In this document: positions 3,001 to 30,155 of the stretch, piece after piece
Layout: each line of letters starts with the position of its first letter
Numbering within the stretch: the first letter of the stretch is position 1
Source: Streblomastix strix
Lineage: Eukaryota
Direction of reading: 5' to 3'
DNA: 34,694 bases
Assembly (NCBI GenBank): GCA_008636045.1
Contig: SNRW01000049.1
Span: 1 to 34,694, forward strand
The notes under the pieces: generated by a model
Seen by the model: only the letters and a program-made list of their open reading frames with translations
The model's database searches: none
What the model was told of the DNA's origin: nothing
Translations under genes and position numbers: made by a program

Positions 3001-4330
3001 TTAGAAAAGATCTTAAACATCACAGTTGCCTGAAAGAGATAGAAATAGGAATTCTGGAAGAAGATCATAAAGTCCTGTTCTTTCATCAGGAAGAAGAATA
3101 CAAACTGCTGATGATGATAATATAACAAATACTAAAAGAAGAAAGAGAGATATAGGTTTATATGAAAATGATGAAGATGAAAATAAATTACTTGAAGGAA
3201 GATATAATCGACAATCTTAATATTAATAAATTGAATATTATCCGTTATATTCTTAAAATCCTTAAAATAATTAATAACATATTGAAACAGAAGAATCATT
3301 TCTTCCACCACTTCAAGATTAGAAATAAAGTAGAAGAGGATAGAGAGATAAACTTCTATATACACCTTTGCCAAAGTAATAATTGTATAAACAGGAGAAT
3401 TAAAAATAAAACAGATAAATGAATGAAAGATATTATGAGGATTATGAAGATAAAGATAGAATTTCTCTTCCTTCAATTAATAATAACTTAAATAGAAATA
3501 AATAATCTCCATCACAAAATTAATCAAATAATAAATCTAATTTCATTGGACCCGATGGAATTGTTGGAGTATTTTCTGATGAAAATACAATGAATGACAT
3601 AGATACAAACCCACCTAATATTAAAGATCTAATTACTATTATTAGAAACAAATTAGATTATTAGAAAAAAGAAGGATAAGATAATAAATAATAATAACTT
3701 GATGATATTGATATTATAAACTCAAACGATTTTATTGTTGCATATTGGATTGCTAGCAGAAAGCTTGCCGCTTTATGGAATGTTTTAAATATTCCACTTA
3801 AGGAACAATAACTTTAATAATTTGTTATCATTCACCCAAAATCTCCAATTAATGAATCATCAAGTTATTAATCGAATGAAATCGTTAAGAAATTCTCGGA
3901 TGAAGATTAAAAACCAACTATTGAAAAATATTAAAATATTCACAATGAAATTGATTAATTATAAGAGCTATTTGATATTCGTTAAGAACTAGCTTTTTTG
4001 ATTAATGTACGAAATTCTCTTCTACTCTAATTTTTCCGCCGAGCAGGGAAATTTGGTCAATCAATACCCGAATAACTTCTTTCACAAAGATCAGATGGTG
4101 ATAATGAAAAAGAGACAAATTTGAAATCATCAATAGAAAAGTTGATTGAATAAATAAACTCATACACTTAACAAGTGAGATCAGGACTACAAGAATGGCG
4201 CAGCCTCAGACCTTGGCACAATGGCATATTACTACTAACACAACGAGATGAAGAAGCATAGTTGGAATAAGAAGATAATCTATTTCAAAGTAGGTTGTTG
4301 GAACTTTGTGATGTTTTTAAAATATAATGA
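1..4330 (+). CDS. 5'-partial C2-domain protein with a long E/K/Q-rich low-complexity region and a possible MAP65/Ase1/PRC1-like C-terminal helical domain; exons <1-1980, 2090-4330 (>1,400 aa)
   Basis: With TAR=Gln, frame 1 is open from base 1: VDNHGISNPFVVLKYCEQEFKTQG...NENFIFQYDH...LNVEFYDINTFWDPIQIGKLKINI...GDIEMKIKF, which has the C2 domain strand pattern. Phase-0 GT..AG intron at 1981-2089. The second exon is open to TGA at 4328-4330, followed by AT-rich intergenic sequence. Confidence 0.85.
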
Positions 4331-4702: not shown

Positions 4703-7700
4703 ATGACAAAGAAGGTTGGAAGATATTTTAATCCATATTTGCAAACTGCACACGAACCTTTGCAACCCCCCGAATTTTTGTAATCAGATAATAAGGAAGA
4801 TCTTATTTCTCGTATATCTTCAAAATAAGTTCCATCAAAATAAATACCTGCAACCTTAGCATCGATAAACACACCAGAAAAAAATAATATGAACATTGTA
4901 TTTAGAGGGTTAGAATCTCTTGGGGATTCGCCAATAAGACCAAATTTAGGAATTTAATATTAAGGATCAAAATTGGGTAATATTAAATTAAATGAATATG
5001 AAAAAATAGAAAATTCTACTTTTAAACCATCATCTGCCCCTATTGGATAAAAACGATAAAATTAACAACGTCCACGTTCAACTCAATCGTATTTCTCTAC
5101 AAGTGACATTTAAGTAAAAAGTTTTTAATATAAGAATTTTCCAATTGTAACTCGTCCTTCATTCACTCCAGGAACTAACAAGATGATTGGATACAATACA
5201 TGAAACTTAACAAATTCAGGTTAATTCGCATCCAAGATTGGTCAAAGGTAATTAAAATCTACATAACCAATAATATCACCAACAGAGCCTAGCACATAAA
5301 ACCAAAATTCAAACACTGATGATTACACTTAAGATAATATAAATATAAACAAGCCTTAGTCATTACTATCTTACTTTTAGGAACCTATTACATCTTAAGA
5401 TTTGCAAATTGATAATTCAAGTGATCTTCCTTAATGGTTATAGTTTAGTTAGTTAGAATCTCTTACAATTGAATCATTTTCATTTCCTCTTTCAGAATAA
5501 TTAACTCCAATGTCTAAATCTGAAATGTTGGAAGCTACAATATAAACTATTGCCTAAGCAAATGAAAAATAGAAAAAAGAAACAGAATATTTGTTGTAAA
5601 AGAGCACACCTGGATATGCTAAAGTTTATTTTATTATTAATATCGCTTAAATATTTAAATATATTAATTATTATTTTATTTTCATGTGATTAATTCATCT
5701 TAATAATATTATTAGGCAGGAGGAGCAATTGCATAATTTTCATTAAATGCATTTTAAAGAGCAGAAGCATCAATTAAAGCTGCAGAAATAGAAGCTAAGA
5801 TTTCTTAGTAACATAATGCATCTGATTAATTGTGGAGAAATATAATGCTTTAAACTAATAAACGAACTGAACCTACCAGGTATTTTTATTTTAATAGTTC
5901 TATATTATTACATTATATTCTTTTTTAGATAAGATGCTGAATTATTGGAGAAATGGATAGATTACCAGATAATGTTGTTGAAAGGAGAAAATCCAATCGA
6001 TAGAAGAGAATACTATAAGTAATTTTAGACTATTTTAGGTTGAGCATTTAATGAGTTAAATAGATAGGTAACAACTAGTTGTTTAGAGCGTGGCCATCTC
6101 TTAACTCATTTATGGATTTTATATTAATCAATTTTTGATGTATGAAACAAATAATAATAATAATAAGTTTATTAATTATTTGTAAAAATAAGTATTATTT
6201 AAATTGAAAACTTTTTTTTAATTATTATAACTATATATTAGGATATTATTCGTTTTATTACACTTAATCGTAATAAACATATAGAATTAATGGAACAATA
6301 ACTTAAAGATAAATTATTGTAAATAAAAAAAGAATAAGAAGAAAAAAGCAACACTGAATAATAGCATTTTTAGTCTCAAATAGTTTCATTAAGAGAATAG
6401 AATAGAGCTATTTCAAAGAGTTTACTTGAAATTTAGTCATAATTAACCGATAAAGAAAAAGAAATTTTCGATGCATGTTATATTAATAAAAATTTAAATA
6501 GTCAAATATTATTATTATTGTTCTTATTCTTATTCTTATTTTCTTTTTATTTTCTTTATACTTACAATTATTTTAGTTGCGTGAAACCAATAATAATCTT
6601 GAATAGGATATACAAAAATTGCAAAGCACGTTGATAAATTCTCTCAAGTTTATGTAAAGAGTAGACTAATAAGGAAATGATAATATTCATTAAAATAGTA
6701 ATATACAATAAAATAAAATAAATATTTAATAAGGAATGAATGAAATAATGTAAGGGCTGAGAGGAATAAGTATGTTTTAGTTATGAATTAAAGAAGAAAA
6801 CGTTAAAATAGAATAATAACATAAATTGATATTTATTTATATTATTATTTATATTATTATTTATATTATTAATATTATTATTAATATTATTACAAAATTT
6901 CATTTATTTCTTTACTATATTTAATTATAAATTTATTATTATTTGTTATATAATATTTATAGAGGGAAAGAAAGCTGGAGGAAATCTAAGAAAATTGGTT
7001 TCATTAATAATAAACTCGAAGCAAAACAAAATAAAATAATAAGAAATTAATTATAATCTACCGATTTCTATTTAATAAATTAATGATATTAGTCAAAACA
7101 CTAATAATGATAAAGTTAATTTGTAAAAAAGTGAATAATCCACATAATAATCTCAATAATAATTACCTAATAGATTTGCGAGAATTTCTTCAATTAATAT
7201 GAAAGATTGGTAAATGAATTAGAATATGAATAATTTATTGAATGAAAATTAATTATAATAAGATCAATAATAATAAATAGAAATCACGAAAGAAACAAAT
7301 GAAGAATAATAATAGTAATAAAAGTATGAAAATGAAAAATAACCAATAAAGGAAGAAGAAGGAATTTAAAATGATGATTAAGATGAAGAAATTGAATTGA
7401 AAATAATCAAAAAAGAAAAAAAGAAAATATATAAATATGAATATGAATATAATGATGAAGAAGAAGAAGAAGATGATGATGATGATGATGATGATGAGGA
7501 TGACGAAGTTGAATAAGAAATTTAAGGAGACATTAATAATGAATAAAATATAACACAACAAATATAACAACTTAATAGAAAAAATAATAAATAAAATAAT
7601 ATACATACGAAAAAATCTTTTTCTTTCCTAAAAACTGTTAAAAATATCGATAATTAAAATATAAATATAAATAATAATAAATAACCAAGTTGGTTAATGA

Positions 7701-10700
7701 AATAATAAGAAGAAGAATTAAAAGAAGGAAAATATGCTATAATAATGAAGGATAATTGTAACATTTAAATTTTCGATAAAAATAAAGAAGAAAAAGAGGA
7801 TTTAAAATTATTGAATTAAAAATAAGAATAAGATAAATAATAGTTCAAAGAAGACTTTCCAATTAAAGAAAATATTAATAATAATAAAGATATTGATGAA
7901 TGTTAGAATGAGCATTAACATGTTAAAATAATAACTTTTCCATTTTCTTTCATTGATCCGAAATAAATTTCGGAATATTTATAATAATAGTCTGATAATA
8001 ATAAAGCTTAATCTATTGCTATATAATTAAGAAACAAAAAAATTGCTCTTGTTGATGTTAAGAGTGAAGCTGAAGGTAAAAATTAAGAAGATTATGAGTA
8101 AGAATAATAAATATAAAATATATAAATGAAACAAAAACAATATGAATTATAGGGTGATAATTTGTTGTAATAAGAATATGAAAGAGATGAACAATAATCA
8201 AACATTTCATAGAGGCATATTCTTCATTAACACCAACCATAAATTATTACTCCTTCAAGATCTTATGATCAATAAAATAAGAAAAAACAATTAAAAGCAG
8301 TTTAGAGACCAATTTCATCAACTTCATATTCTCCTTTGATGCTTTTTTCTTCATCCTTATCATCTTTTAAATCATCTTCTCCCTAATCATAATCATAATC
8401 ATAATCATAATATCAGCAAACTAAACAGCTTTTAAAATCAAAATCGTAACCTTTAATTAATTTAAATATATAAGAATAATATGATACATAACAATAATAA
8501 TCATAATCATAATCATATTCACCTTCTTCTCCTTATTATGAAGAAAATTCTATAATTCTAAATACAAATTAATAAAATAATGAAGAAATATAAAATATAA
8601 ATGAATATAATGAATAAAAAGAAGAATCTTTGGAAGATAATTTATAAGATGCAAAGTCAATTGCAAGCTAATTGCATAGATAATCAACGAAAGGTTCAAT
8701 CTATACACATATTACTGTAGTTTCAGATAATTTTTCTGAGTTATCAAGTATTTCAAATTTGTAGAATGTCTCTAATTTACCAAAATTAGATTAAGAGAAG
8801 AAATAATAAAAAAAGCGCAAAAAATTATCATTTAAATAAGCCGCTAGATTAAAGATGACTACAAATGCAGTATTCCCTACATCTTAATAACTACATTAAT
8901 AGCAATCATAATAATCATTATAGACTATCAATTCATAATCATCTATTCATATTAGTTAATAAAAATAACAAACGTATCATCCTTCCCACCTTCATATTCG
9001 TCATATCAAAAGCAAATCACAATAAAATACTTTTAGGAAAGGTAATTTAAAGAGACTTTAATAGTAAATAAAGGATGAAGATTAAGAATAGGAATAAGAT
9101 TTAGAATATGAATAAATGGAAATAGAATAAAATTATGAAGGAAAAGAAAAAGAAAATAATTCATTTGATTTTAGTTTAAATGATGATAATATTAATGTTA
9201 TTAAATTAAATAATGATGACATTGAATATGAAAATGATAGTACAGAAAAAGAGAATAGTGAAAATGAATTTGGACAATAAAGAAATAAAGAAATATTATC
9301 TAATGTATTTTAGAGTTCATTTAGTCCACTTGATACTATTAAAGAAGAAAAAGAGAAAAAGATTGAAAAAGATATGGAAGTTAATAATTAGGAAGAGTAA
9401 GATTAAAATAAAGAGAAAAAGAATGAAGATGATAAAAAGATGGATAATAATTAAGATAAAGATTCGGATAAAAAATTAATTAAATATTACACTGCATATA
9501 ATCCATAAAATCCTCGTTATAATTAAACTAATTATTAGCAACAATTACTTCCAAGTTAACCCAATATTAATGAAAATAACATTAATAAAAAAATATCAAG
9601 ATCTAAATCATAAATTCAATAATAATATATAGATAATAATTTGAATTAAATCTAGAACAATAAAGAAAACACAAATTTTGATTAAAAGAAGGATTATTCA
9701 TTAGGTGCAAAACGCTAATCAAAAATTTATTAATAATATGTGTAATAACAATAGATAAATAAGTAAATTAAATAATAATTAGATAGTAATTTAAATAGTA
9801 GCAATAACTAATAACAATAATTAAGTTCAAGAGTATTCAAAATTAAGATTGACAAATTACCTAGAATATAACCACAAATAAGAGTTATTGAAAAAGATGT
9901 TGGCATATAATGTTATTTGGATGATAATTAAATGTATTTAATAGACGAAATAAAATAAAGGATGAAAGGATAAACATTAAACTTAGAATAAGAGAAAGAA
10001 CAGAAGAATAATGAATAATAAAAAAATGATAAAGAATTGAATACGTAAATAAGGAGGATAAATTCAGTTACAAAAGAAAATTCAATTTAAAATGGTATTT
10101 TAAGTAATAAATTAAATTAATCCGAAGAAAAAGTTAAAGGCATCAAAAATGAAATAAATCATGAAATTTAAGGATAAAACAAATATAATCTTCTTCTTAA
10201 AGTTCAATTTGGATTATAAGATAAAATATTAAATGAATAGGAATATCTATAATGGAAATAGAAAATGAAAGAAGAAGATGAATTAAATGCAGAAAATGAA
10301 GAAAAAAGAATTAAAAAGAAAGAAGATGAAGATGAATAGAAAAGAAGATAAGAAGAAGAAGATGAAGAAGAAAGAAATGAATAAAAAAGAATTGAATAAG
10401 AATAGGATTTATAACTTAGAATGAAGTAGATAGAATTATAATATATAAAACAAAATAATAAAGCATATATATCTTAATAATTTATTTAATTACAAGCACT
10501 CTAATAATAATTATTAGATTTGGAAAAGAAAGAAAAAGTGGAAAAAGAGAAATAAGAAGAATTGAAGAAGATTGAAATTGAGAAATAGAAAGAGAACGAA
10601 AAATATGAGTAAGAATATAAACAATAAATACAAATGAAAAAGATATATTAATAATAACAATTAAGGTTAGAAGAAAAAGAAAAAGAGAGAAAGTAAGAAA

Positions 10701-13700
10701 GAAAAGAAGGATAAATATAATTTGAAACATAAAATATTATTATAGGTACAGATTTTATTTCAAATAAAAATTAGAATGAAATTGCACAATAAAGAGATAA
10801 TGAAATAAATGTAGTAAATCAAATAGAATAATAGAAAAATGAATTAATAAGTTAAATAAAAATCATTCGAAGGAGTATGATTAACAGAAAAATAGTAAAT
10901 GAAGAGGATATTATATAGAAATAGTAATTCTTATAACAATTATATTCAAATCTCTTCAACAATCATAAATATTCATTGGCATCCTTTTAACTTCCCTCGC
11001 CTGATACAATCATTGCTCTATATGAAGAAGAGTATCAAGTTATCTTATAATTGTCTATTATAGATGAAATCGAGAAGAAATTCAGAGAAATTAATAATGA
11101 GAAGAAACTTACCGAGAAATAACAGGAAATTGATTAAGAAAAAGTGATAGAAATCGATAAAAAGAATTAAAAATAGAAAGAGAAAGAGAAAGAAAAAGAA
11201 AAACCTAAAAAGAAATTTAAATAAGAAAAAGATAATATATAAATTCCACCTATTAATTAATAGAATTTAAAGTAAAAAGAAATATAAAACCAAATACAAA
11301 TATTAAAAGTTGCCTAAAAAGCTACTAATTAAATATTATTAAATAGAACCAATGAATTTAACGATGAACTTGAAGAAGAATAATAATAATTAGGAGATTA
11401 AGATAAAGAATAAAATATTGTCATAAATGGTGATGCTATTGTTAGTTTGTTTATTTGTTTATTATTTTTTATTTTAATTTTCTTCAATTAATTCAAATTT
11501 ACTATTTTAAATATTAATAATTAATCAGCCAAAATGCCTTTGTTTTCAAATTTAATTTCTAATGTCGGACTAAGCTGGATGAAAGATCTAATACCAAATA
11601 ATTATTTCTCAGTAAATCAACTTAATTCATAACAGTTTATATCAAATTTATTTATTTCAAATAATCAAAGCCCAGACAATTAAGAATAACAATTAAACGA
11701 TGAAAAAGGAATAATCAACGAATAATAATTTGCTTATAATAATATAAAAGATGGATTAAATTAAAATATGAACTTTAATATAGGTATTATGCATCCCATA
11801 CTTTATATGAACATGATATAATCATAAGTATTTTAATTAAAATTGAATGAAAGAACGTAGAAAGTGAAGATGAATGAGAAAAAGAACGTAGATGAAGAGT
11901 AAAATGATAAAAATGACTAATAATTGGAAGATGAGGAATAAGAAGATGATATAGATAATTTTCTGGAATAATGGCAATCTATGAATTAATTTAATAATTA
12001 TAACAAATATACTTCTCAAAATTCACAGTAATCTTATTCATATACGCAATAATTCCATTATCAATAACTTTAAAATTAATTCTATAATTTTATCCTTCAC
12101 CATTAGAAATTACTATCTTAATAATTCCCTTTTTCTTTTCTATCTTTTATTTCTATAAAATAAATTAAATCTATTTTGCGAATTCATATTAATTTAATTA
12201 AACAATTAAGAGAATTAGTTGAAAAAGTTATTGAGATGTTTTAAGTATAAATATTATAATTTAAAATAATAATTTATTAATTTTAAAAATATTAAATTTA
12301 TCATTTTTAATTTCTATTTTCTATACTCTTTATATATTAATTTATTACAGATATAATTGAATAAATCTTTGAATTTAAAACCAATAAAATAACAAAAATA
12401 AACATAGATTTAGAAATCCAATCTAAATAATAAATAATAATAATAATCATCTTCAGAATCATCCTCTTCTTTTTCATATCCATTTCCTTCTCCTCAATCT
12501 TCTTAATAATTGACATTTACATTCTCATCATCATCTATAAGTTCTTTCTTATAATAATAATACCCTCTTTCTTTCCCTTGTTTTATTTTTAGAATAAATG
12601 AATAACTACCCTTTTCAATTCCAGATATTGAGATATTTAACATTTAATAAGTTATAAAAATGATTGGAGAAGGAAAAATTATTGAATATGCCTGGGTTTG
12701 AATATTATTATTATACCTTTACTTAGAAATAATTTATTATGTCTTCATTGCATTACCTTTTTTTATTACAATTTATTTATTTATTTAATAGGCAAACACA
12801 TAAATAATGAGAGATTTATAAAATTAACATTAATAATTAAAATAAAAATAAATAAATGAAAATATCAAAATGTAATAATAGTAAGAATTAGAATAACAAT
12901 CTAAATTTTTTGATAATTTGAAACTTTTGAATATAAATAAAATGAAAGAAAAAATAAACTTAAATGAAAAGGAAAAGGAAAAGGAAAAGGAAAGAAAGAA
13001 GAAATAATATGAAAAGAAAAAGGAGAAAGAGACAAATAAAAAATCTGTCATATTATCTTCTGGTAGCACAGAATAATTAAATATAAATAATTAATTATAA
13101 TAATCTTAATAATTATAGTAATAATAAATTATTTACTCTGATAACAATAAATAAACATTATTAGTAAATAAAGAAGGTGGAGAAAATATTGCATTCAAGT
13201 AAATTGTAAAAACTGAAGATTAAAATGAAATTTATGATAGAAGTTAAATTTCATTAGTAGATGCTGCTACTTTATAAAAATAGTAATCAGATTAATTAGA
13301 ATCATAAAATAAAGCAAAATAATTAGACAAGGAGCATGAATAAAATTAATCATTGTAATATTAATAGTAAATATAGTATAGTTCACAATCTTTAAATAAT
13401 TCTGATAGTAATATTAATGAATAAAAAAAAAGAAGATCATTATAAAGTTTTTAATAAAATAATAATCCACAATAATAAAATCATAGACAACAATCCATCT
13501 AACAATAATAAATTTCCAATTAACATACTCAAATATCCTAATTTTAGTCTCATCCTAAACTTCCTTCAATTTAATTATCATAATCAAGTTGATAAATGAC
13601 TCATTAAAAATCATCATAAAGTGATTTATAGAATAAAGAAGTATAATTATTAAAATAAGGAGATAACATTGAAAGAGAATAAAAAGATGATGATAAAGAA

Positions 13701-16700
13701 ATTGATAAGAAAAATAATAATCTTAAATATCATCATATTCATCATCATCACCACCACCATCATCATCTTTAATAATAATAATAAGAAGAAGAAGAATAAT
13801 AATAATCAAATATTAATAATATAGAATAATTAGATGAATAATAAATATAGACAGAAATTAATTAAAGAAATCATTCTCCATTATCTTATAGTTCAATTAA
13901 ATAGAAAGATGATTAATCTTTATCTCTTTCTTCTCGGTCTAACAAATCTTCATCTCGATCTGAAAAATCAAATAAATAATAGAAATTAAAGAAATAATAT
14001 GGATAAAGTAAAATAAATTTAAAAGATTAGTAATTACAATAATAGACAGAGAATTAATTTGATAAAGAAATGATGACTATTAAGAGAAAAGCATAATTAT
14101 TGAATATTACTGATACTAATTAGTATGAAAAAGAAAATCCTGAATTATAAATATCTACACGTGCATCTTCTCGTATTTCTTTTATTCCTCAACAATCTCC
14201 TTTGATCTAAGCATCTTAATAATAAAAGAAAAAACAAAGTAGAAAATAGAAATAAAATAAACTTTCAAATCAATAAACATAAAAATCTAATCATAATAAA
14301 AGAATGAATACTTATTCATCATTTAATTCATCTGTATCTTCCAATTCAAGACAATCAGCTCGCTCAAAATATTCTCTTTTGTCCATTTCACAATCTAATT
14401 CTTCATCCTAAGATTCTGCATCATCATCTACTTTCTCTTCATCTATTTCATAATCGCAGCATTCTATTTCATATTCTTCTATTTCATATTCTTATTCTTC
14501 ATCATCAACTTAACATTAAGAGAAAAAATTGAAAATAAGTAAGAAATTAAATAATTAAAAGAAAAATAAATTAATTAATAAATAAATAAAAAAGGATTAG
14601 AGCATTAGATCGTTTCAATCAAATACTTCAAATGGAAATTTAAATATTAAAAAAATTAATAATTTCAAAGCAAATTAAATATTATAAAAGAAGAAAAACA
14701 ATGAAAAAAATTAAAATTAATAACAAAATTAGCAAAATAAAGATTTAAATATAAATATACAATAATAATAAAATGAATAAATAAATAAATAACAAAAAGA
14801 TGAAATTATTACGAAATAAATCGAAGAAAATGACTAATAAATTGTGAAAGAATAAAATACTAATATAGAAAAACAGAAGAAAAGGACATAAAATCATAAA
14901 TCGCACCACCATCATTAAAAACATCATCATCATCATCATCATCATCACAAGAATAATGAATAATAAGAAAAAGAATTAGATAAATAGAATGGTGATGATT
15001 TGATTAAAGTTAATAATTAAATTGTTCCTTAAGATTTAACTCAAAATAATAATGAACTTTAAAATTAAGAATAATAATAGAATTAAGATGATATTCTTTA
15101 GAACAATTCATTAAGTTCAGAATAATAAAAAGAACTTGAATAATAAGATATAGCTTAATAATAAATATTAAAAAAGCACCTAAATCCAGAATATAATCCT
15201 TTTATTCCTTAATCATTCTAGCATTTGATAAGAGTGATAAAAGATTATCATCCAAATTTATTATCTTTATAATAATTAAGAAAAGATATATATTTAATAT
15301 ATTAGGACAAATAAGAGGCTGATTAACTTGATAAATAAAATAATAAAGAAACTTAGAGATTGAGTGAATTTGTATTTGATTATTATTTATATTAATTAGT
15401 ATGAATATATTAATATTATAATAATAGATTTATTATTTTTATTAATTAGTATGAATATATTAATATTATAATAATAGATTTATATTTTCTATTCATTATT
15501 AAATCAATTACCTTTTTTTATTAGGGAATGAGAAATTTAGCTGAAATTAAAATTATTGACTTAATAGCATCTGTGAGAAAATATGCATATCTTTCATCTC
15601 GTGTGAGACTATTCGGAAAATTTTGTGGTATTTTAAATATTCAACATTTATAGGTATTGTATGACACTAATTATTAACATAATCATTAAATTATTGTTTC
15701 CTTTTTATCATTTTTTATTATATTTTAATATTCCTTAAATAGAGTGACCCATTTAATCTAAACTTATTTGATTTATAAAAAGAAGAAGAAAGAAAATAAA
15801 TTATAAAGGTTTGATAAAGATTTAATATTAATTCATCAGTAATTTAAACTTTTGTTGGGTATACTTTTCTGTTTCAATTATAATTATTTTTATTTTATCA
15901 TTTAATAATTGTATAAAAAGGATGCACGTAGTGAATTAATTTAATAGTAAGAGGAAAAGGAGATGAACGAAAAAGAATAGTAGAAAGAATAAAAAAAGAT
16001 TATGTAATAGACTATTAAAGGAGAAGATTAACATATTATTGAAAATAATGATGATATTTTATTAAATTAAAAGTAATTATCATTGAAATTTGCAGCTAAA
16101 GCAGATGTCGCAGTTTAAAAGTTTGAAAATTTACTAAAGAAAAAAAGAAACGAAAATAATAATGTAAATATCAATTAAATGAAATAATAATAATAATAAG
16201 ATGATGAAGATAATAATAGAGATAATTAGTTTGGAAATGAATAATTTGATAGTGGAAATTATTTTAATTTTGATTTATAGAAATAAAAAAAACTAATGAT
16301 GAACGCATTTTCTGGTATTGAAGATGAAACAGGTAAAGATTAAACAGATTAATAATAATAATCATCAGATAGATAAATAGACTAAAATTAGAATTAATAA
16401 ATTAAATTAAAATAATTTTAACCAAAATAAAAACAATTTTTAAATAAATTATCATTTGGATAAAATAAATAAGATTTTGAAATGAAAATTATATAATAAC
16501 CTTCTGTATCTAATTTGAATTTATTAAAATAATAAAGAATTAATAATATTACTTTAAATGAAAGATTAAAATCCGGTCAACAATCATCAATTTCATTATT
16601 AACATCTAATTCATCATCTTCTTTCTTTCCTAATTAACCGCAATTTTCTTCAATGCAAATAAAATAATAGACAAAATAATAATCATAATTATAAAAAGAA

Positions 16701-18155
16701 ATGCATTAATAATAATTGAAATAATAATTTGAAGGAGAGTTAACAATTAAAAAGAAGAAAGGAATTTAGAATGTTTTGGATTATTTGTAAATAGAATAAA
16801 TAGACGTAAAAGGAAATATTAGTAACAATGATATTAAGAATTATAGAGATAATTTTGATAGAAATAAGTTTATAATATAATAATTTAATAAAATTAATAT
16901 TTATTTTTTATTTATTTTAACGTTTTTTCATTACTTCTGCTTCTCTATTTAATATATTTAGTATTGCAGTTTAAAAATAATAATAATTAGATGACATTTC
17001 CCCTCACTCGTTTGACTTACAGTGGCCAAAAGCGGCTATTGATTTCACGATGAGATTATTATAATTGATTTTGTAAAAAGGCACTGCATTAGCATTACCA
17101 ACGCTTTCTACAGCAGATGAATAATTTATCATATCAATTACAAGAGCTGTAGAATCAGCTTAATAATTCTTTAAAGTTATAATATTATTATCTAAATTAA
17201 ATAATTCATATATCAATTATTTCACATATATATCATATATATTTTTCATTATATTTATTGATATTAATAACAGGATATGCCAGATAAATCAAAATAACAT
17301 ATAATCGCAGAAATATAGAGAATTGGTGCTGATGGGTATGCATCTAAAATTAAATTAAACAGAATAAATTCAAATATTTTTCTTTTTATTTTTTATATAT
17401 AAATTTTCAATAGTACTGTTAATGTTGATGAAATGTTGGAACTCGCTACAATTGAATATATGACCTAATATTACATCTTAATATAAAAAATCAGCAACAT
17501 ATTAGCATTCTCTGCATTTTAAAATTCACCTTATCTTTCTAAGATATTTGCATAGAAAGCCAGAAATAATGGAGTTGATGAAATTGAGGTGTTAAATGCA
17601 GAAGAAGAATATTTGGAAGTATTTTCTGTGCTTTCTTCTCTTTCAACAGAGTCAATCCTTACATTTAATGAGTTTCGGTCTATAGTAAAAGTATTACAAC
17701 CTACATTAGAAGAACGAATGGCAGTAAGACTTTATAGAGAATCGCTATGTTATTTTGATTCATTAGTTATTAGCCCATTCTCATTATTAATCGTTTGTGA
17801 TAACGCGGGAATTTTTGGTAATGCAGGAACATCTCTGAAAATACCGAATAATATTTTAATATAAGTTGATGAAGATAATAATTAGCTACAAAATATAATA
17901 AGTATAATTTGGAAATCTTCATATCCATTATTAAGTAGCAAACTGATAGATATATAGACTAAGTAACCAAATCTTCCAATATCTGCATTTGGAACGCTTC
18001 GAAATAGAATTGAAAATATAAGTGTTGTTGTTTCATCTAATAAGACTCCATAGCGAGCTTTGCGTGAGATCAGAAGCCTCTTTGTAGATTTATCATTACT
18101 TGGAGGAGATTTAACATAAGGAAGAGGTGAAAGGAATTAGATAATGATGTTTTGA
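4703..18155 (+). CDS. Giant (~4,009 aa) protein: N-terminal axonemal dynein light chain (p28/DNALI1/AXDND1-type) domain, coiled coil, Q/E/K/S/N low-complexity middle, C-terminal TSNAXIP1-like/EF-hand-like region; contains 3 in-frame TGA
   Basis: Exons 4703-5623, 5716-5879, 5929-6139, 6242-6472, 6577-6769, 6963-11444, 11529-12244, 12351-12695, 12792-15398, 15525-15653, 15743-15808, 15921-16867, 16962-17175, 17274-17335, 17414-18155 sum to 12,030 nt (divisible by 3) with compatible intron phases. Motifs: EPTRQDAELLEKWID...AFNELNRQVTTSCLERGHLLTHLW (Ax_dynein_light FxELxRQVxxxCxERGxLL); IYQDKQEADQLD...LSEFVFDYYLYQLGMRNLAEIKIIDLIASVRKY...RVRLFGKFCG; LTFNEFRSIVKVLQPTLEERMAVRLYRESL. In-frame TGA at 5201, 6041 and 13590; terminal TGA at 18153-18155. 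Confidence 0.8.
6473..6576 (+). other. Probable non-canonical GC-AG spliceosomal intron
   Basis: The downstream exon (LRETNNNLEQDIQKLQS) needs a phase-0 donor. The GT dinucleotides at 6477, 6501 and 6520 are phase 1, 1 and 2, whereas GCATGT at 6473 is phase 0 and resembles GTATGT. The acceptor is ttttag at 6576. Confidence 0.6.
15381..15483 (+). repeat. ~50-bp tandem duplication spanning a 5' splice site
   Basis: attaattagtatgaatatattaatattataataatagatttat occurs at 15391 and again at 15441 (period 50), duplicating the GTATGA donor (15399 and 15449). Confidence 0.9.
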
Positions 18156-18361
18156 TAAAGATGATCATATTAATTTATTTTATAAAAACCTTGTATTATA
18201 TTTATTTCACGTACTAATTGTTTTTTTCAAAATTATATCTAATATTGACATTTTCTCTTTTTGTGAAGATTAATAAAATATCCTATAAATAACCAAAATT
18301 GAATATACATGTGAACCAATTTATATTTTTTTCTAGTCATTATTCCTACTATTATATATTC

Positions 18362-18843
18362 AGTATATTTTAAAATTTTTAATATAAATCCAACACTTTA
18401 ATTATCCTCAAAAAAAACCCAAACTTAACCCAACAACAAGTGAGAAATTAAAATAAAAGATCTCAATGTTATGCATTAATCACTACTGTAAATTATGTGT
18501 TTTTCTATATATATTATCCAGAAATAATTTTTTTAATTTGGAATCATTCTCAATAATAACATTTATTTTAATTCCATCGAGTTATGTCTCGCTGAAATTC
18601 ATATGAAAAAAAACAACTATTACGCTCGCGTAACAATCATTCAGTTTATATATCTACATTATTATTATTATTATTATTATATATTCTTTGCTTCTAACCC
18701 TTCCACCACATACTCACAAATAAATTCACATTAAGCGACATTTAACCAAATGATTTAAATTTTTTTAATAAACAAGTCGAGTGTTCTCAAATAATTAATA
18801 CATTTATCTTTTGTATTATATTAAATTTTTGATAAATTGACTT
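18362..18843 (+). repeat. Left arm of a long inverted repeat; forms the upstream region of MED10
   Basis: Reverse complement of 21231-21700, e.g. aatccaacactttaattatcctc, attccatcgagttatgtctcgctgaaattcatatg and ttccaccacatactcacaaataaattcac are all mirrored. The arms differ by scattered substitutions and (ATT)n length. Confidence 0.95.
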
Positions 18844-18910
18844 GATCTCATTTTATTTGCTGATTTATTTTCTTTTCTTAAAGACTATTAGTTATTATAT
18901 TTAAGTTCAT

Positions 18911-19498
18911 ATGTCGGCTGAGCTTGAAGAACTTCTAAAATCCGCGTATCTTGGATTGATTCGTCTTCAATAAATGGCTGAAGGTACAATATAATCATCA
19001 GATGATTAATTTAAAGAGGAAATGTTTGGTTATTCTATATGTATTATCCATATGTAAAATTGATTTTTTTTATTAACCAACCATTTTGTAGTTAAAATTC
19101 TATGGAAATTATGAATAATATGTATGAAATGAAAGATGCCGTACCCATTCCTATACCAGAAGAGATTATTTAGTGTGATATACTTTATTATTCCTTTCTT
19201 AATCTTAATTAATCCTCATTTATTTCACAGATTAATAGACCGCAATGTTCATCCAGATGTATTCACACAAGAGCTTCTTGCACAAACATTGAACAAGATT
19301 AATTAAATGAATACTTAATTGGTCTCTTATGAGGTTTGCTAATTATTTAATACATTTACTTCTTAGTACTCCTATCAGTTGCTTAAAGGGAGATTAAATG
19401 CAACTGGAATAAATTCAAGTGAAGAGGAAGCAAATGCAATTTTAAGTCAAATTAACTTAGAAATATAAAAGCAAAAGGAAAATTAGGAAGTATAATGA
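18911..19498 (+). CDS. MED10: Mediator of RNA polymerase II transcription subunit 10 (Med10/Nut2); exons 18911-19023, 19092-19172, 19231-19333, 19367-19498 (142 aa)
   Basis: Spliced protein MSAELEELLKSAYLGLIRLQQMAEG...PIPEEIIQLIDRNVHPDVFTQELLAQTLNKINQMNTQL matches the Med10 signature (VPxEvxxyIDxGrNPxxyTxexlexxxxxN). Three GT-AG introns with consistent phase; TGA at 19496-19498. The last 33-nt intron is in frame and less certain. Confidence 0.8.
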
Positions 19499-21114: not shown

Positions 21115-21230
21115 AAAATTCTATGTTTCTATTCAAAATAAACAAAATTAAGAAATATTATCAAATTTCTGGATTGTTAATATTAATTTTGTATCAATAT
21201 ACAGAATAATAAAGTAATTTAGAAAAAATG

Positions 21231-21700
21231 AAGTCAATTTATCAAAAATTTAATATAATACAAAAGATAAGAGTATTAATTATTTGAGAACGCACAACTT
21301 GTTTATTAAATAAATTTAAATCATTTGGTTAAATATCGTTTAATGTGAATTTATTTGTGAGTATGTGGTGGAAGAGTTAGAAGCAAAATATATATAATAA
21401 TAATGTAGATATATAAACTGAATGATTGTTGCGCGAGCGTAATAGTTGTTTTTTTCATATGAATTTCAGCGAGACATAACTCGATGGAATTAAAATAAAT
21501 GTTATTATTGAGAATGATTCCGAATTAAAAAAATTATTTTTGGATAATATATATAGAAAAACACATAATTTACAGTAGTGATTAATGCATAACATTGAGA
21601 TCTTTTATTTTAAATACTCACTTGTTGTTGGGTTAAGTTTGGGTTTTTTTTTGAGGATAATTAAAGTGTTGGATTTATATTAAAAATATTAAAATATACT
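21231..21700 (-). repeat. Right arm of the long inverted repeat; forms the upstream region of ESS2
   Basis: Reverse complement of 18362-18843; its inner end is 116 nt upstream of the ESS2 ATG. Confidence 0.95.
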
Positions 21701-21808
21701 AAATGTTTATACACAACCTTTATTAATCAACTTGTTCAGTTATGAAATGAATAAAAATCATTCAACAAGCAAAATTAAATAATTTTATAATTTGAGGGGT
21801 TTTACCAT

Positions 21809-27800: not shown

Positions 27801-30155
27801 TCTATATTATCATTTAAAATTTTCTAATCTTTTCTTTCATCAAATTTGATTTAAGAAACTAAGTAATTATCATTTTAAATAATTTTATCATTCACTTGAA
27901 TTATTTGTTCATTTGTATTTTGATTAAGATTAGATAATAAATCAAAATTATTCTACTAACCATCATCCTAAAAAATTAATTGTTACTAACTTATTTATAA
28001 CTAATTTTATTAAATGTTTTAATTAAATGAATAATTTTGTTATATTTGTTATTATTATGGCAATATTTACTAATGAAATGGTGTTACTGTATCACTTTTG
28101 ACTAAAATATTAATATTTTAATTTCTTTTAGGTTAAAATACTGGTGCTGATAATCTAAGCTGTTTCTTAACTTTTTCTGGAGAATTTTAATCAATTTATT
28201 ACTAATCTACATAACTGCTGTTAATATTTAATTATGAGGTCAATTATTTTTATTATATGTTTTAAGGTAATGTGATAGGTTCAATGTACTAATGATTATT
28301 TTATAAAGGAATCTGAGTTTAATTCAAATTATTTAAATAATTTGAATAAAGTGGAGGCTGTATAAGTTAATTCTATTGAAATGATTAAGTCTAATTGTAT
28401 TAATTTGTTAAATCTTATTGTTATTAAGGTGAAAAAGGTAATAAATATTGCTATTAATTATTTGTTTAATTTAAATTTATTGAAAATGTTTGAATTGGTT
28501 ATATTTACCTATTATAATATTCTGAAGAATGAGAAGGAAGTTAGTGAATTTATGGATGAATTTAATTAATATCATTTGATTAAAAAGAATAAGATGGAGA
28601 AACTTGATTAAATTAATATGAAGAAGAAGTCTATTATGAAGATGATATTGAAGAAGCTATCTATTATTATTCGTTGATATTTTGAATTATATATTATTAT
28701 TATTATTATTTCAATTGATTTAAATTTTAACTTGAATTTAGATTATTCATATGTGATGTGAATTATAATGAATCTCTTTCTTATACATTATTCATTATTT
28801 AAAGAGATGATGACTATTAATTAATTAAATTGGTTGATTAATGAATTGTTTTATTAAATTCTATTTATTCCTTATTCTTATTTACATCTGCTTTCAATAA
28901 TTTCTTTTCTTTTTTCTTTTCTCGCATCTTTTCTTTTCTCTTTTCCTTCTTTTTCTTTTTCTATTATTCTTTATCTTATTCACTCTTTTCTACTTTAGTT
29001 GGTTTAACCTTCACTTCATGAACTGTCCAAAAATAGTTTCTCTTTTTCATTTTCTATGATTTGTTCTCATATCGAGGTTTATATTTAACACATACCCCGC
29101 AAACGTTCACCTTCCTTTCTTACTCTTCTAACTATAATGCTCGAGTTGCAGCCTGAATAATAAAATTTATAAGAAAATGAATGTTAATAAAGTAACATTA
29201 AAGAAGAAAATTAAGTTTAATAACCCTTTCTCCTTTTCCACTATTCACAAAAAATATTATTCCACATCCTTTGAAATTTCCTAATCTATCTACTTAAAGA
29301 TCAGCACGAATGACAGGACCAAATTTCTAAGCAAAAGCTTCAATCACAGCCTCTTCTGAAAATGATTATAAACTACTGTTAGGAATTGGCGTTTCAAAGT
29401 AAACGAATATTGAATTATTAAGAAATTCAGAATCAGCCCACATTACATTCAATATGACTCCAGAGTAATTCAAGTTAATAAGGCGATCTTTGGCATGTTA
29501 AGCACTAAATCTAAGTTCATATTGAACATACAATGTGAAGAATCCCTTAGTTTCCTCTTTTTCCAATGTTTTAACCCTTGCATAATCTCCAAAATAACGA
29601 AGATTGACAAGATTATAAAGCTCCGAATGATTTGCTGAGAGTGGAATTGGGAAAATGGCAATGCTTGTGTTTATATGAGTTTTGCTAATTCTTAGAATGC
29701 ATCCATCCTAGAGTTTCTGATATAATAATTGAAGCAATAAGAAAATAGATAACAAATAAAAATTGTAAACAAGAGTTCGTTAAGAAAGCACATGTCGAGT
29801 GGACCTTGTATCGCTGAAATATATAAAGGCATATTTCTTTAGTTATTCATGTTTCTTTTAAATGGATTGTTCTTTCGCAGAAAAATCAATATTATTCTCA
29901 AATTAACAATGTAATATTTATCCGAATGTACTGAAAACTCATCATAATTCAATTGCATCAAACAGTTATAAATCTCCACGAATCATAACACCTGTCCTGC
30001 TTTTTATCTCATTTAATTAGTTAATTTCAGTAGATTTGTGAGATTAATTTATTTGGGATGAAGATCCTACGAAATAAAAATAGTAATTGTCAGAAAATGG
30101 TCAAAATAAAAAACATACCTACAAAAACATTTTGATGCGATTCAAGTGGTTCCAT
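21809..30155 (-). CDS. Large (~2,720 aa) RNA-binding protein with three N-terminal RRM-like domains and a ~2,400-aa Q/S/N/P-rich low-complexity tail; contains tandem in-frame TGA-TGA in RRM1
   Basis: Exons 30155-30119, 30066-29771, 29716-29225, 29152-21809 (8,169 nt, divisible by 3). RRM1: TGVMIRGDLQLFDAIEL**VFSTFGQILHCQF...KYAFIYFSD. RRM2: SIAIFPIP...YFGDYARV...LYVQYELRFSAQHAKDRL...LNVMWAD. RRM3: SIFVYF...AFAQKFGPVIRADLQVDRLGNFKGCGIIFF. The last exon has no in-frame TGA for 7.3 kb. The first downstream TGA is 21811-21809; an alternative stop is 21760-21758. Confidence 0.82.

What the first reader, a model, noticed from the sequence alone, without database searches (positions are those of the whole stretch)
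13590..13592. Identical local context (T-TGA-TAA-A) is read through mid-gene but terminates at the gene end
Internal 13590 reads agt TGA taa atg within a 2.6-kb exon (LSQSS*QMTHQKSS), while the same gene ends at ttt TGA taa aga TGA (18153). Contexts of the other internal TGAs (aca-TGA-aac, ggt-TGA-gca, tta-TGA-TGA-gtt) and terminal TGAs (taa-TGA-tat, taa-TGA-aat, aaa-TGA-ata, tta-TGA-atg, tca-TGA-atc) show no distinguishing motif. All internal TGAs lie more than 3.5 kb from the 3' end. Inference: termination is position-dependent (proximity to the poly(A) tail), as proposed for ambiguous-code ciliates.
Basis: partly seen in the sequence, partly recalled or inferred. Interest (0 to 1): 0.7.

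Follow-up and report, generated by a model that had tools for sequence, protein, structure and literature searches.

The report
Termite-gut protist without a dedicated stop
In the termite-gut protist Streblomastix strix, the last remaining stop codon, TGA, sits five times inside otherwise intact genes, so it likely also codes for an amino acid (likely arginine) and would end proteins only near the end of the message, a rare kind of genetic code described in ciliates and a few parasites.

Summary
The window is a Streblomastix strix contig (oxymonad, TAA/TAG=Gln). TGA 13590 lies inside a 15-exon gene (4703-18155). Single Blattamonas proteins align along this gene in order, on both sides of 13590, so it is one gene, not two. 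Four gene models hold 5 internal TGAs in 9,482 codons and no frameshift. A hidden intron, assembly error and pseudogene decay each fit badly.

The residue is probably not Trp. At 6041 the four closest homologs have R, R, R, K, and 0 of 22 have W or C. The tandem TGA TGA fills two positions of an RRM helix where polar residues score best. The likeliest code is Gln/Gln/Arg-or-stop; Gln is not excluded.

Position-dependent termination is inferred by analogy only. Five sites cannot test it (P=0.9 for none in the last 50 codons), and the true stop could be 18162. No RNA or second genome was available. My searches found no report of sense UGA in oxymonads.

The parts
13590..13592 (+). Internal in-frame TGA, codon 2688 of 4010 of gene B, in a Q/S/H-rich stretch with no counterpart in orthologs (residue cannot be read by homology)
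   Evidence: all 29 GT/GC-AG candidate introns covering it score exon-like (best -0.21 bits/base, real introns +0.055 or more)
12792..15398 (+). 2,607-nt exon 9 of gene B holding TGA 13590; its 3' end and the exon before it align to Blattamonas orthologs
4703..18155 (+). Gene B: 15 exons, 14 introns, 4,009 codons, three internal TGAs; axonemal-dynein-light-chain-like segment; colinear with Blattamonas BLNAU_19170 and BLNAU_19495
6041..6043 (+). Internal TGA in a conserved helix (ILG*AFNEL); K, R, R, R in the four closest homologs
   Evidence: the NCBI model EZS28_000578 stops here
5201..5203 (+). Internal TGA in exon 1 of gene B; aligns to R,R,R in one alignment mode and K,K,N in another, so uninformative
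29939..29944 (-). Tandem internal TGA TGA in helix 1 of the first RRM of an RRM gene (30155-21809)
   Evidence: the NCBI model EZS28_000583 skips them with a 150-nt exon-like 'intron'
18153..18164 (+). End of gene B: TGA TAA AGA TGA; termination at 18153 or 18162; T-rich DNA follows
   Evidence: (ortholog alignments end at 18104-18107)

Best explanation
TGA lies inside the reading frame of intact Streblomastix strix genes and also at their ends, so it is likely a dual-meaning codon, likely read as arginine inside genes and as stop near the transcript end. Shown: organism, TAR=Gln gene models, five internal TGAs without frameshifts, one-gene continuity across 13590, Arg/Lys in the closest homologs at 6041. 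Inferred: (1) CpG-type C-to-T change turns Arg CGA into TGA, the same first-position change that links CAA/CAG to TAA/TAG. (2) A nuclear tRNA-Arg, either with a UCA anticodon or reading by first-position G:U wobble, outcompetes a weakened eRF1 at internal sites. Decoding must be efficient, since gene B needs three passes. (3) Termination is restored near the 3' end, by analogy with the poly(A)-proximity model for ciliates. My split: TGA is a real sense codon about 0.8; given that, Arg about 0.55, Gln 0.25, Trp 0.1; position dependence about 0.7.
For: Single Blattamonas proteins align in order from 5782 to 18107. 5 TGA and 0 frameshifts in 9,482 codons; 19 of 19 introns are GT/GC-AG, T-rich, 49-193 nt. 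UGA frequency 0.053% lies within the 0.042-0.120% of three UGA-reassigning ciliates (PMC4967479). At 6041 a profile of the four closest homologs scores R 102.6, K 101.9, Q 100.8, W 98.7, C 98.7 bits; 0 of 22 homologs have W or C. RRM_1 bits: K 22.6, E 22.6, R 22.2, Q 21.7 vs W 18.2, C 17.0; the TGAs fill match states. Of 6 Trp columns shared by both orthologs, 5 use TGG and none TGA; 1 of 34 shared Arg columns uses TGA. CpG is depleted (o/e 0.53), and 3 of 17 substitutions between two repeat copies are at CpG. Two terminal TGAs have no in-frame backup for 291 and 163 codons, so simple leakiness everywhere fits badly. A Q/Q/R code is reported in seven spirotrich ciliates (PMC10089648 section 5).
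Against: One contig from a whole-genome-amplified assembly, with no reads or RNA. Only one TGA sits in a well-aligned ortholog column. That column varies in distant homologs (Q4 R3 A3 T3 I3 V2 K L G S of 22; V, I or A in 7 of 7 loci), and Pfam Ax_dynein_light prefers Q (27.9 vs R 24.7). An ortholog residue shows ancestry, not what is decoded. A neighbour-composition model favoured W (+4.0 bits) over R (-2.4) and Q (-3.6). TGA is far rarer than an equilibrated synonym would be (5 vs 24 CGA, P about 4e-15). Two short candidate introns over the RRM pair score intron-like (33 nt +0.065; 60 nt GC-AG +0.116). Monocercomonoides 3' UTRs average 166-312 nt, much longer than in ciliates. No tRNA or eRF1 could be examined (0 tRNAs in the window).
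Confidence: 0.6

Rival explanations
1. TGA is a real sense codon but gives glutamine (TAA-to-TGA transitions read by the UAA-reading tRNA-Gln) or tryptophan (near-cognate tRNA-Trp, as in Condylostoma, karyorelicts and Blastocrithidia).
For: Gln: p28/DNALI1-type chains have Q at the 6041 position in the 4 dynein alignments shown; Pfam prefers Q; TAA is the commonest codon (965) and 13590 lies in Q-rich sequence. Trp: usual outcome elsewhere; the neighbour model leans to W.
Against: Closest homologs have R/K. Gln needs a mismatch at the middle codon position (established decoding rules, own knowledge). W-W in an RRM helix loses 4 bits, and 0 of 22 homologs have W. 34 TGG vs 5 TGA in a genome where A-ending codons take 74-87% of two-codon boxes.
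Confidence: 0.25
2. The TGAs are amplification or assembly errors, or nonsense mutations in dying genes; TGA is a plain stop (table 6).
For: Whole-genome-amplified source; no second copy of the locus found; 2 of 4 modelled genes have none.
Against: Random substitutions would need about 0.7% error per base, about 200 changes. The window's own duplicated non-coding repeat shows 17 substitutions and two 1-nt indels in 490 nt, predicting some 20 frameshifts (about 3 at the lower Poisson bound); 0 are seen. Conserved blocks remain 37-55% identical to Blattamonas, against 47-66% between the two Blattamonas paralogs. Two adjacent TGAs.
Confidence: 0.12
3. Sense versus stop is set by something other than poly(A) distance, for example a downstream exon junction or a U-rich 3' UTR element.
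For: 0 of 5 internal TGAs lie in last exons, which hold 44% of codons, one of them 7.3 kb long (P=0.05). All six terminal TGAs are followed by T-rich DNA (0.43-0.50 over 60 nt; about 5% of exon positions reach 0.43).
Against: Small numbers. The RRM internal pair is also followed by T 0.45-0.47. No precedent seen for junction-dependent sense decoding in the papers read.
Confidence: 0.12
4. At 13590 specifically: a hidden intron, two genes, or an alternative poly(A) site giving a short isoform.
For: GT at 13588 and an AAG at 13638 would give a 51-nt in-frame intron; ATG at 13596; ATTAAA at +11 and AATAAA at +40.
Against: That intron scores -0.255 bits/base. AATAAA occurs 7.5 times per kb of coding DNA here. 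Orthologs are single chains. It would not explain 6041.
Confidence: 0.05
5. The mRNA is edited (U to C) so that UGA becomes CGA and the code itself is unchanged.
For: Would give Arg, as seen at 6041; U-to-C removal of stop codons is known from hornwort and fern organelles (recalled, not checked).
Against: TAA and TAG are present in Streblomastix ESTs (PMC1501061), so the Gln codons are not edited; no nuclear precedent seen.
Confidence: 0.04

Closest known systems
Q/Q/R code reported for spirotrich ciliates (Sterkiella, Tetmemena, Stylonychia, Paraurostyla, Uroleptopsis, Uronychia; Chen et al. 2023, PMC10089648)
   Same: TAA/TAG=Gln, with rarer in-frame TGA at Arg columns.
   Different: Different supergroup (Metamonada); here Arg rests on one ortholog column plus one profile; no read support here.
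Karyorelict/Parduczia code (NCBI table 27; also Amoebophrya sp. ex Karlodinium)
   Same: TAR=Gln; UGA both sense and main stop; low UGA frequency.
   Different: There UGA=Trp, with 3' UTRs of about 21-43 nt and UGA depletion 10-20 codons before the stop. Here Trp is disfavoured, and UTR length and depletion are untested.
Condylostoma magnum (table 28) and Blastocrithidia (table 31)
   Same: All 64 codons can be sense; termination depends on context.
   Different: There UAA/UAG also serve as stops and UGA=Trp; here all six modelled gene ends are TGA.
Published Streblomastix strix code (table 6, TAR=Gln, TGA=stop)
   Same: TAR=Gln confirmed (1,132 of 1,355 Gln codons); TGA ends genes.
   Different: Internal TGAs are not accounted for; two NCBI models on this contig are cut or mis-spliced at them.

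Membership tests
Ambiguous stop/sense nuclear codes | Stop codon in frame inside conserved coding regions of intact genes | tested here: met
   6041 in a conserved helix, RRM pair in profile match states, no frameshifts
Ambiguous stop/sense nuclear codes | The same codon also terminates genes | tested here: met
   Gene B ends at TGA 18153 or 18162 just past the ortholog alignment; the Es2 gene ends at TGA 19644, 33 residues after the Pfam model end
Ambiguous stop/sense nuclear codes | No local sequence motif separates sense from stop | tested here: inconclusive
   Identical 8-nt context and no shared structure, but only 5 vs 6 sites, and 18153 is not proven terminal
Ambiguous stop/sense nuclear codes | Depletion of the codon just before true stops | tested here: inconclusive
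   0 of 5 in the last 50 codons, P=0.90 by chance
Ambiguous stop/sense nuclear codes | Very short 3' UTRs, stop close to poly(A) | not testable with these tools
   No RNA run listed. Hint only: two convergent stops are 143 nt apart. The relative M. exilis averages 166-312 nt
Ambiguous stop/sense nuclear codes | Translation through the codon shown by ribosome profiling or peptides | not testable with these tools
   No such data available
Ambiguous stop/sense nuclear codes | Decoding tRNA and altered eRF1 | not testable with these tools
   No genome held; 0 tRNAs in the window
Table 27/28 codes (UGA=Trp) | In-frame UGA at conserved Trp columns | tested here: not met
   0 of 22 homologs with W at 6041; 0 of 6 shared Trp columns use TGA; W scores 4 bits below R in both tests; few sites
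Q/Q/R code | In-frame TGA at conserved Arg columns | tested here: inconclusive
   R in 3 of 4 closest homologs and K in 1 at 6041; R and Q within 0.5 bit in the RRM; Pfam dynein model prefers Q
Selenocysteine recoding | UGA at a redox Cys column with a SECIS element | tested here: not met
   C never seen at 6041 and scores worst in the RRM; no Rfam hit in the window at E<=1; a divergent SECIS could be missed

The most novel reading that the evidence does not exclude
Streblomastix strix, a metamonad from a lineage without mitochondria, has no dedicated stop codon. All three stops were captured by one C-to-U logic at the first codon position (CAA, CAG, CGA to UAA, UAG, UGA = Gln, Gln, Arg). This would be the first Q/Q/R code outside ciliates, caught early while UGA is still rare, and it may choose stop versus sense by exon-junction position or a 3' UTR signal rather than by ultra-short UTRs.
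Probability: 0.4. Interest if true: 0.85.

Novelty: new member of a known kind. Interest (0 to 1): 0.72.

Why it matters
Codes with no dedicated stop are described from ciliates, Blastocrithidia and one Amoebophrya strain. A metamonad case would be a further independent origin, in a species whose code has been treated as settled. Oxymonads are reported to lack mitochondria, so an imported mitochondrial tRNA could not be the decoder. Relatives have ordinary-length 3' UTRs, which makes this a direct test of the poly(A)-proximity model. In practice, table-6 annotation cuts or mis-splices genes at these sites (2 of the 2 NCBI models I retrieved from this contig), so the S. strix proteome used in studies of mitochondrion loss may need re-annotation.

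Tried and rejected
No whole genome held. No RNA holder listed for 12000-19000, so no reads were laid. A repeat pattern found nothing in viral or prokaryotic contigs. The profile of the 6041 exon gave 7 distant loci in metagenome contigs, none close to the query (best segments 33-59% identical), and 0 in genome contigs. No ortholog of the RRM gene was found (only the window's own NCBI model; PDB: nothing useful). The single-sequence AlphaFold model of RRM1 was poor (pLDDT 47) and its fold search had no match at E<=0.001; neither is used as evidence. The protein atlas was not usable for this code. The neighbour-composition model was uninformative and leaned to W. Site 5201 gave different residues in two alignment modes. 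No poly(A)-signal hexamer separates terminal from internal TGAs. Rfam and tRNA scans were empty. Earlier findings: none. Rows dropped from the 22-homolog count: P0001 (the window's own protein) and P0020 (a repeat protein), of 24 hits; that search used TGA=Q, which slightly favours Q-bearing hits. The two short genes (18911+, Es2) were not in the codon count.

Full report
Identity. The window is 34,694 nt and AT-rich (GC 16-38% in 500-nt windows), and it reads as long frames only when TAA/TAG are Gln. A search with the exon at 5930-6142 returned one protein, EZS28_000578 of Streblomastix strix, 100% identical up to the TGA and recorded on a contig of 34,694 nt. The window is therefore that oxymonad contig. 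Its code is described as TAR=Gln (PMC13002328, passages).

The observation. TGA 13590 and TGA 18153 share exactly T-TGA-TAAA. I modelled four genes with 19 introns, all GT-AG or GC-AG, 49-193 nt long, 42-61% T and 8-23% GC. They hold 9,482 codons, no frameshift and five internal TGAs: 5201, 6041 and 13590 in gene B, and the tandem 29944/29941 in an RRM gene. Positional base composition would give 122 in-frame TGAs, so TGA is strongly avoided but present. One matching 8-nt context among 30 pairs is expected 0.16 times by chance.

One gene, not two. A profile search of 1.84 billion proteins gave 24 hits. Two are full-length Blattamonas nauphoetae proteins of 1,537 and 1,458 aa. They align in order from 5782 to 18107, with blocks at residues 311-541 and 2380-2440 before codon 2688, and 3223-3336 and 3632-3994 after it. 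The stretch around 13590 is a low-complexity expansion with no counterpart in them, so its residue cannot be read by homology. A two-gene reading needs a 3-nt spacer; the five spacers in the window are 143-755 nt.

Not an intron. All 29 frame-preserving GT/GC-AG candidates over 13590, and all 29 over 5201, score exon-like (best -0.21 and -0.25 bits/base) with the gene left out of training; real introns score +0.055 or more. At 6041 the best candidates score about 0 and would delete aligned residues. At the RRM pair, two of 26 candidates score intron-like (33 and 60 nt), but they would remove a helix that matches RRM_1 positions 14-23 without gaps. This site is less secure than the others.

Not decay or error. 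Five TGAs by random substitution need about 200 changes (0.7% per base). A duplicated 490-nt non-coding element in the window differs by 17 substitutions and two 1-nt indels, which predicts about 20 frameshifts, about 3 at the lower bound; none is seen. The assembly comes from amplified DNA (PMC8767320, passages) and I could not see reads, so error stays at about 0.1.

Which residue. At 6041 the four closest homologs (two named Blattamonas proteins, two unnamed) have K, R, R, R. Among 22 homologs none has W or C, but the column varies. Distant dynein light chains have Q, and seven distant loci have V, I or A (read by eye). A profile of the four closest ranks R, K, Q first, with W and C 4 bits lower. 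Pfam RRM_1 gives K and E 22.6, R 22.2, Q 21.7, W 18.2, C 17.0 bits; Pfam Ax_dynein_light prefers Q 27.9 over R 24.7 and W 24.1. K and E are two base changes from TGA. Against this, a neighbour-composition model leaned to W, and site 5201 is alignment-dependent. Arg is the best guess, Gln second. CpG depletion (0.53) and 3 of 17 repeat substitutions at CpG offer a route from CGA to TGA.

Mechanism. Gene B needs three passes, so internal decoding must be efficient (inference). Two terminal TGAs have no in-frame backup for 291 and 163 codons, so termination there must be efficient too (inference; these two ends rest on composition, not homology). Something must tell the sites apart. Local context and downstream structure do not. 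The ciliate model, in which poly(A)-bound protein near the stop helps eRF1 win (PMC4967479, passages; bioRxiv 2022.04.12.488043, passages), is the best-supported analogy. The window cannot test it: P=0.90 for no TGA in the last 50 codons. The 3.5-kb gap (P 0.03-0.07) is confounded with absence from last exons (P 0.05-0.10). M. exilis 3' UTRs average 166-312 nt; the only local hint of short UTRs is 143 nt between two convergent stops. The context argument also assumes that 18153, not 18162, is the stop.

Known systems. Chen et al. 2023 report TAA/TAG/TGA = Q/Q/R in seven spirotrich ciliates (PMC10089648, passages and sections 5 and 8). UGA=Trp/stop codes are known from karyorelicts, Condylostoma and Amoebophrya. 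Seven searches listed no paper reporting sense UGA in an oxymonad. The 2026 oxymonad transcriptome paper has no 'TGA' in its main text and inferred codes from tubulins (abstract and passages); PMC10703272 has no 'UGA', 'TGA' or 'stop codon'. Also seen: PMC1501061 and PMC11687900 (passages) and PMC10235951 (abstract). The S. strix genome paper was not held, Keeling and Leander 2003 was seen only as a citation, and I read no supplements; any of these could mention in-frame TGA.

Verdict. The feature is real. It is most likely a dual-meaning TGA in a lineage for which my searches found no such report, with Arg the likelier residue and positional termination unproven. New member of a known kind; interest 0.72.

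Noticed in passing
window 6473-6576 (+): GC-AG intron with donor GCATGT; only this donor keeps the frame and a gap-free alignment with the Blattamonas ortholog.
   Followed up: partly
window about 18358-18846 and 21222-21704: A 490-nt inverted duplicate (93.7% identical) lies upstream of two convergent genes (short gene at 18911+, Es2 at 21114-); no Rfam hit. It could be a shared promoter or a mobile element.
   Followed up: partly
window 5201, 6041, 29944, 29941: 4 of 5 internal TGAs lie in the first 10% of their coding sequence and none lies in a last exon.
   Followed up: partly
window coding regions: AATAAA, the poly(A) signal reported for M. exilis, occurs 7.5 times per kb of coding DNA because TAA is the main Gln codon. 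It is absent from the first 80 nt after all six terminal stops, so S. strix likely uses another signal.
   Followed up: no
window 4703-18155 and 30155-21809: Gene B is 4,009 codons against 1,458-1,537 aa in Blattamonas; the excess is Q/N/S/H/E-rich low-complexity sequence.
   Followed up: no
window 18911-19498 (+): Short intron-containing gene, unidentified. It resembles Mediator subunit Med10 from recall only; Pfam gave nothing firm, and the PDB hits to designer PPR proteins are sums of weak repeats.
   Followed up: partly
window 30155-28xxx (-), protein P0030: The NCBI model EZS28_000583 also ends early (324 aa) through an out-of-frame splice, while the frame stays open to 21809.
   Followed up: no
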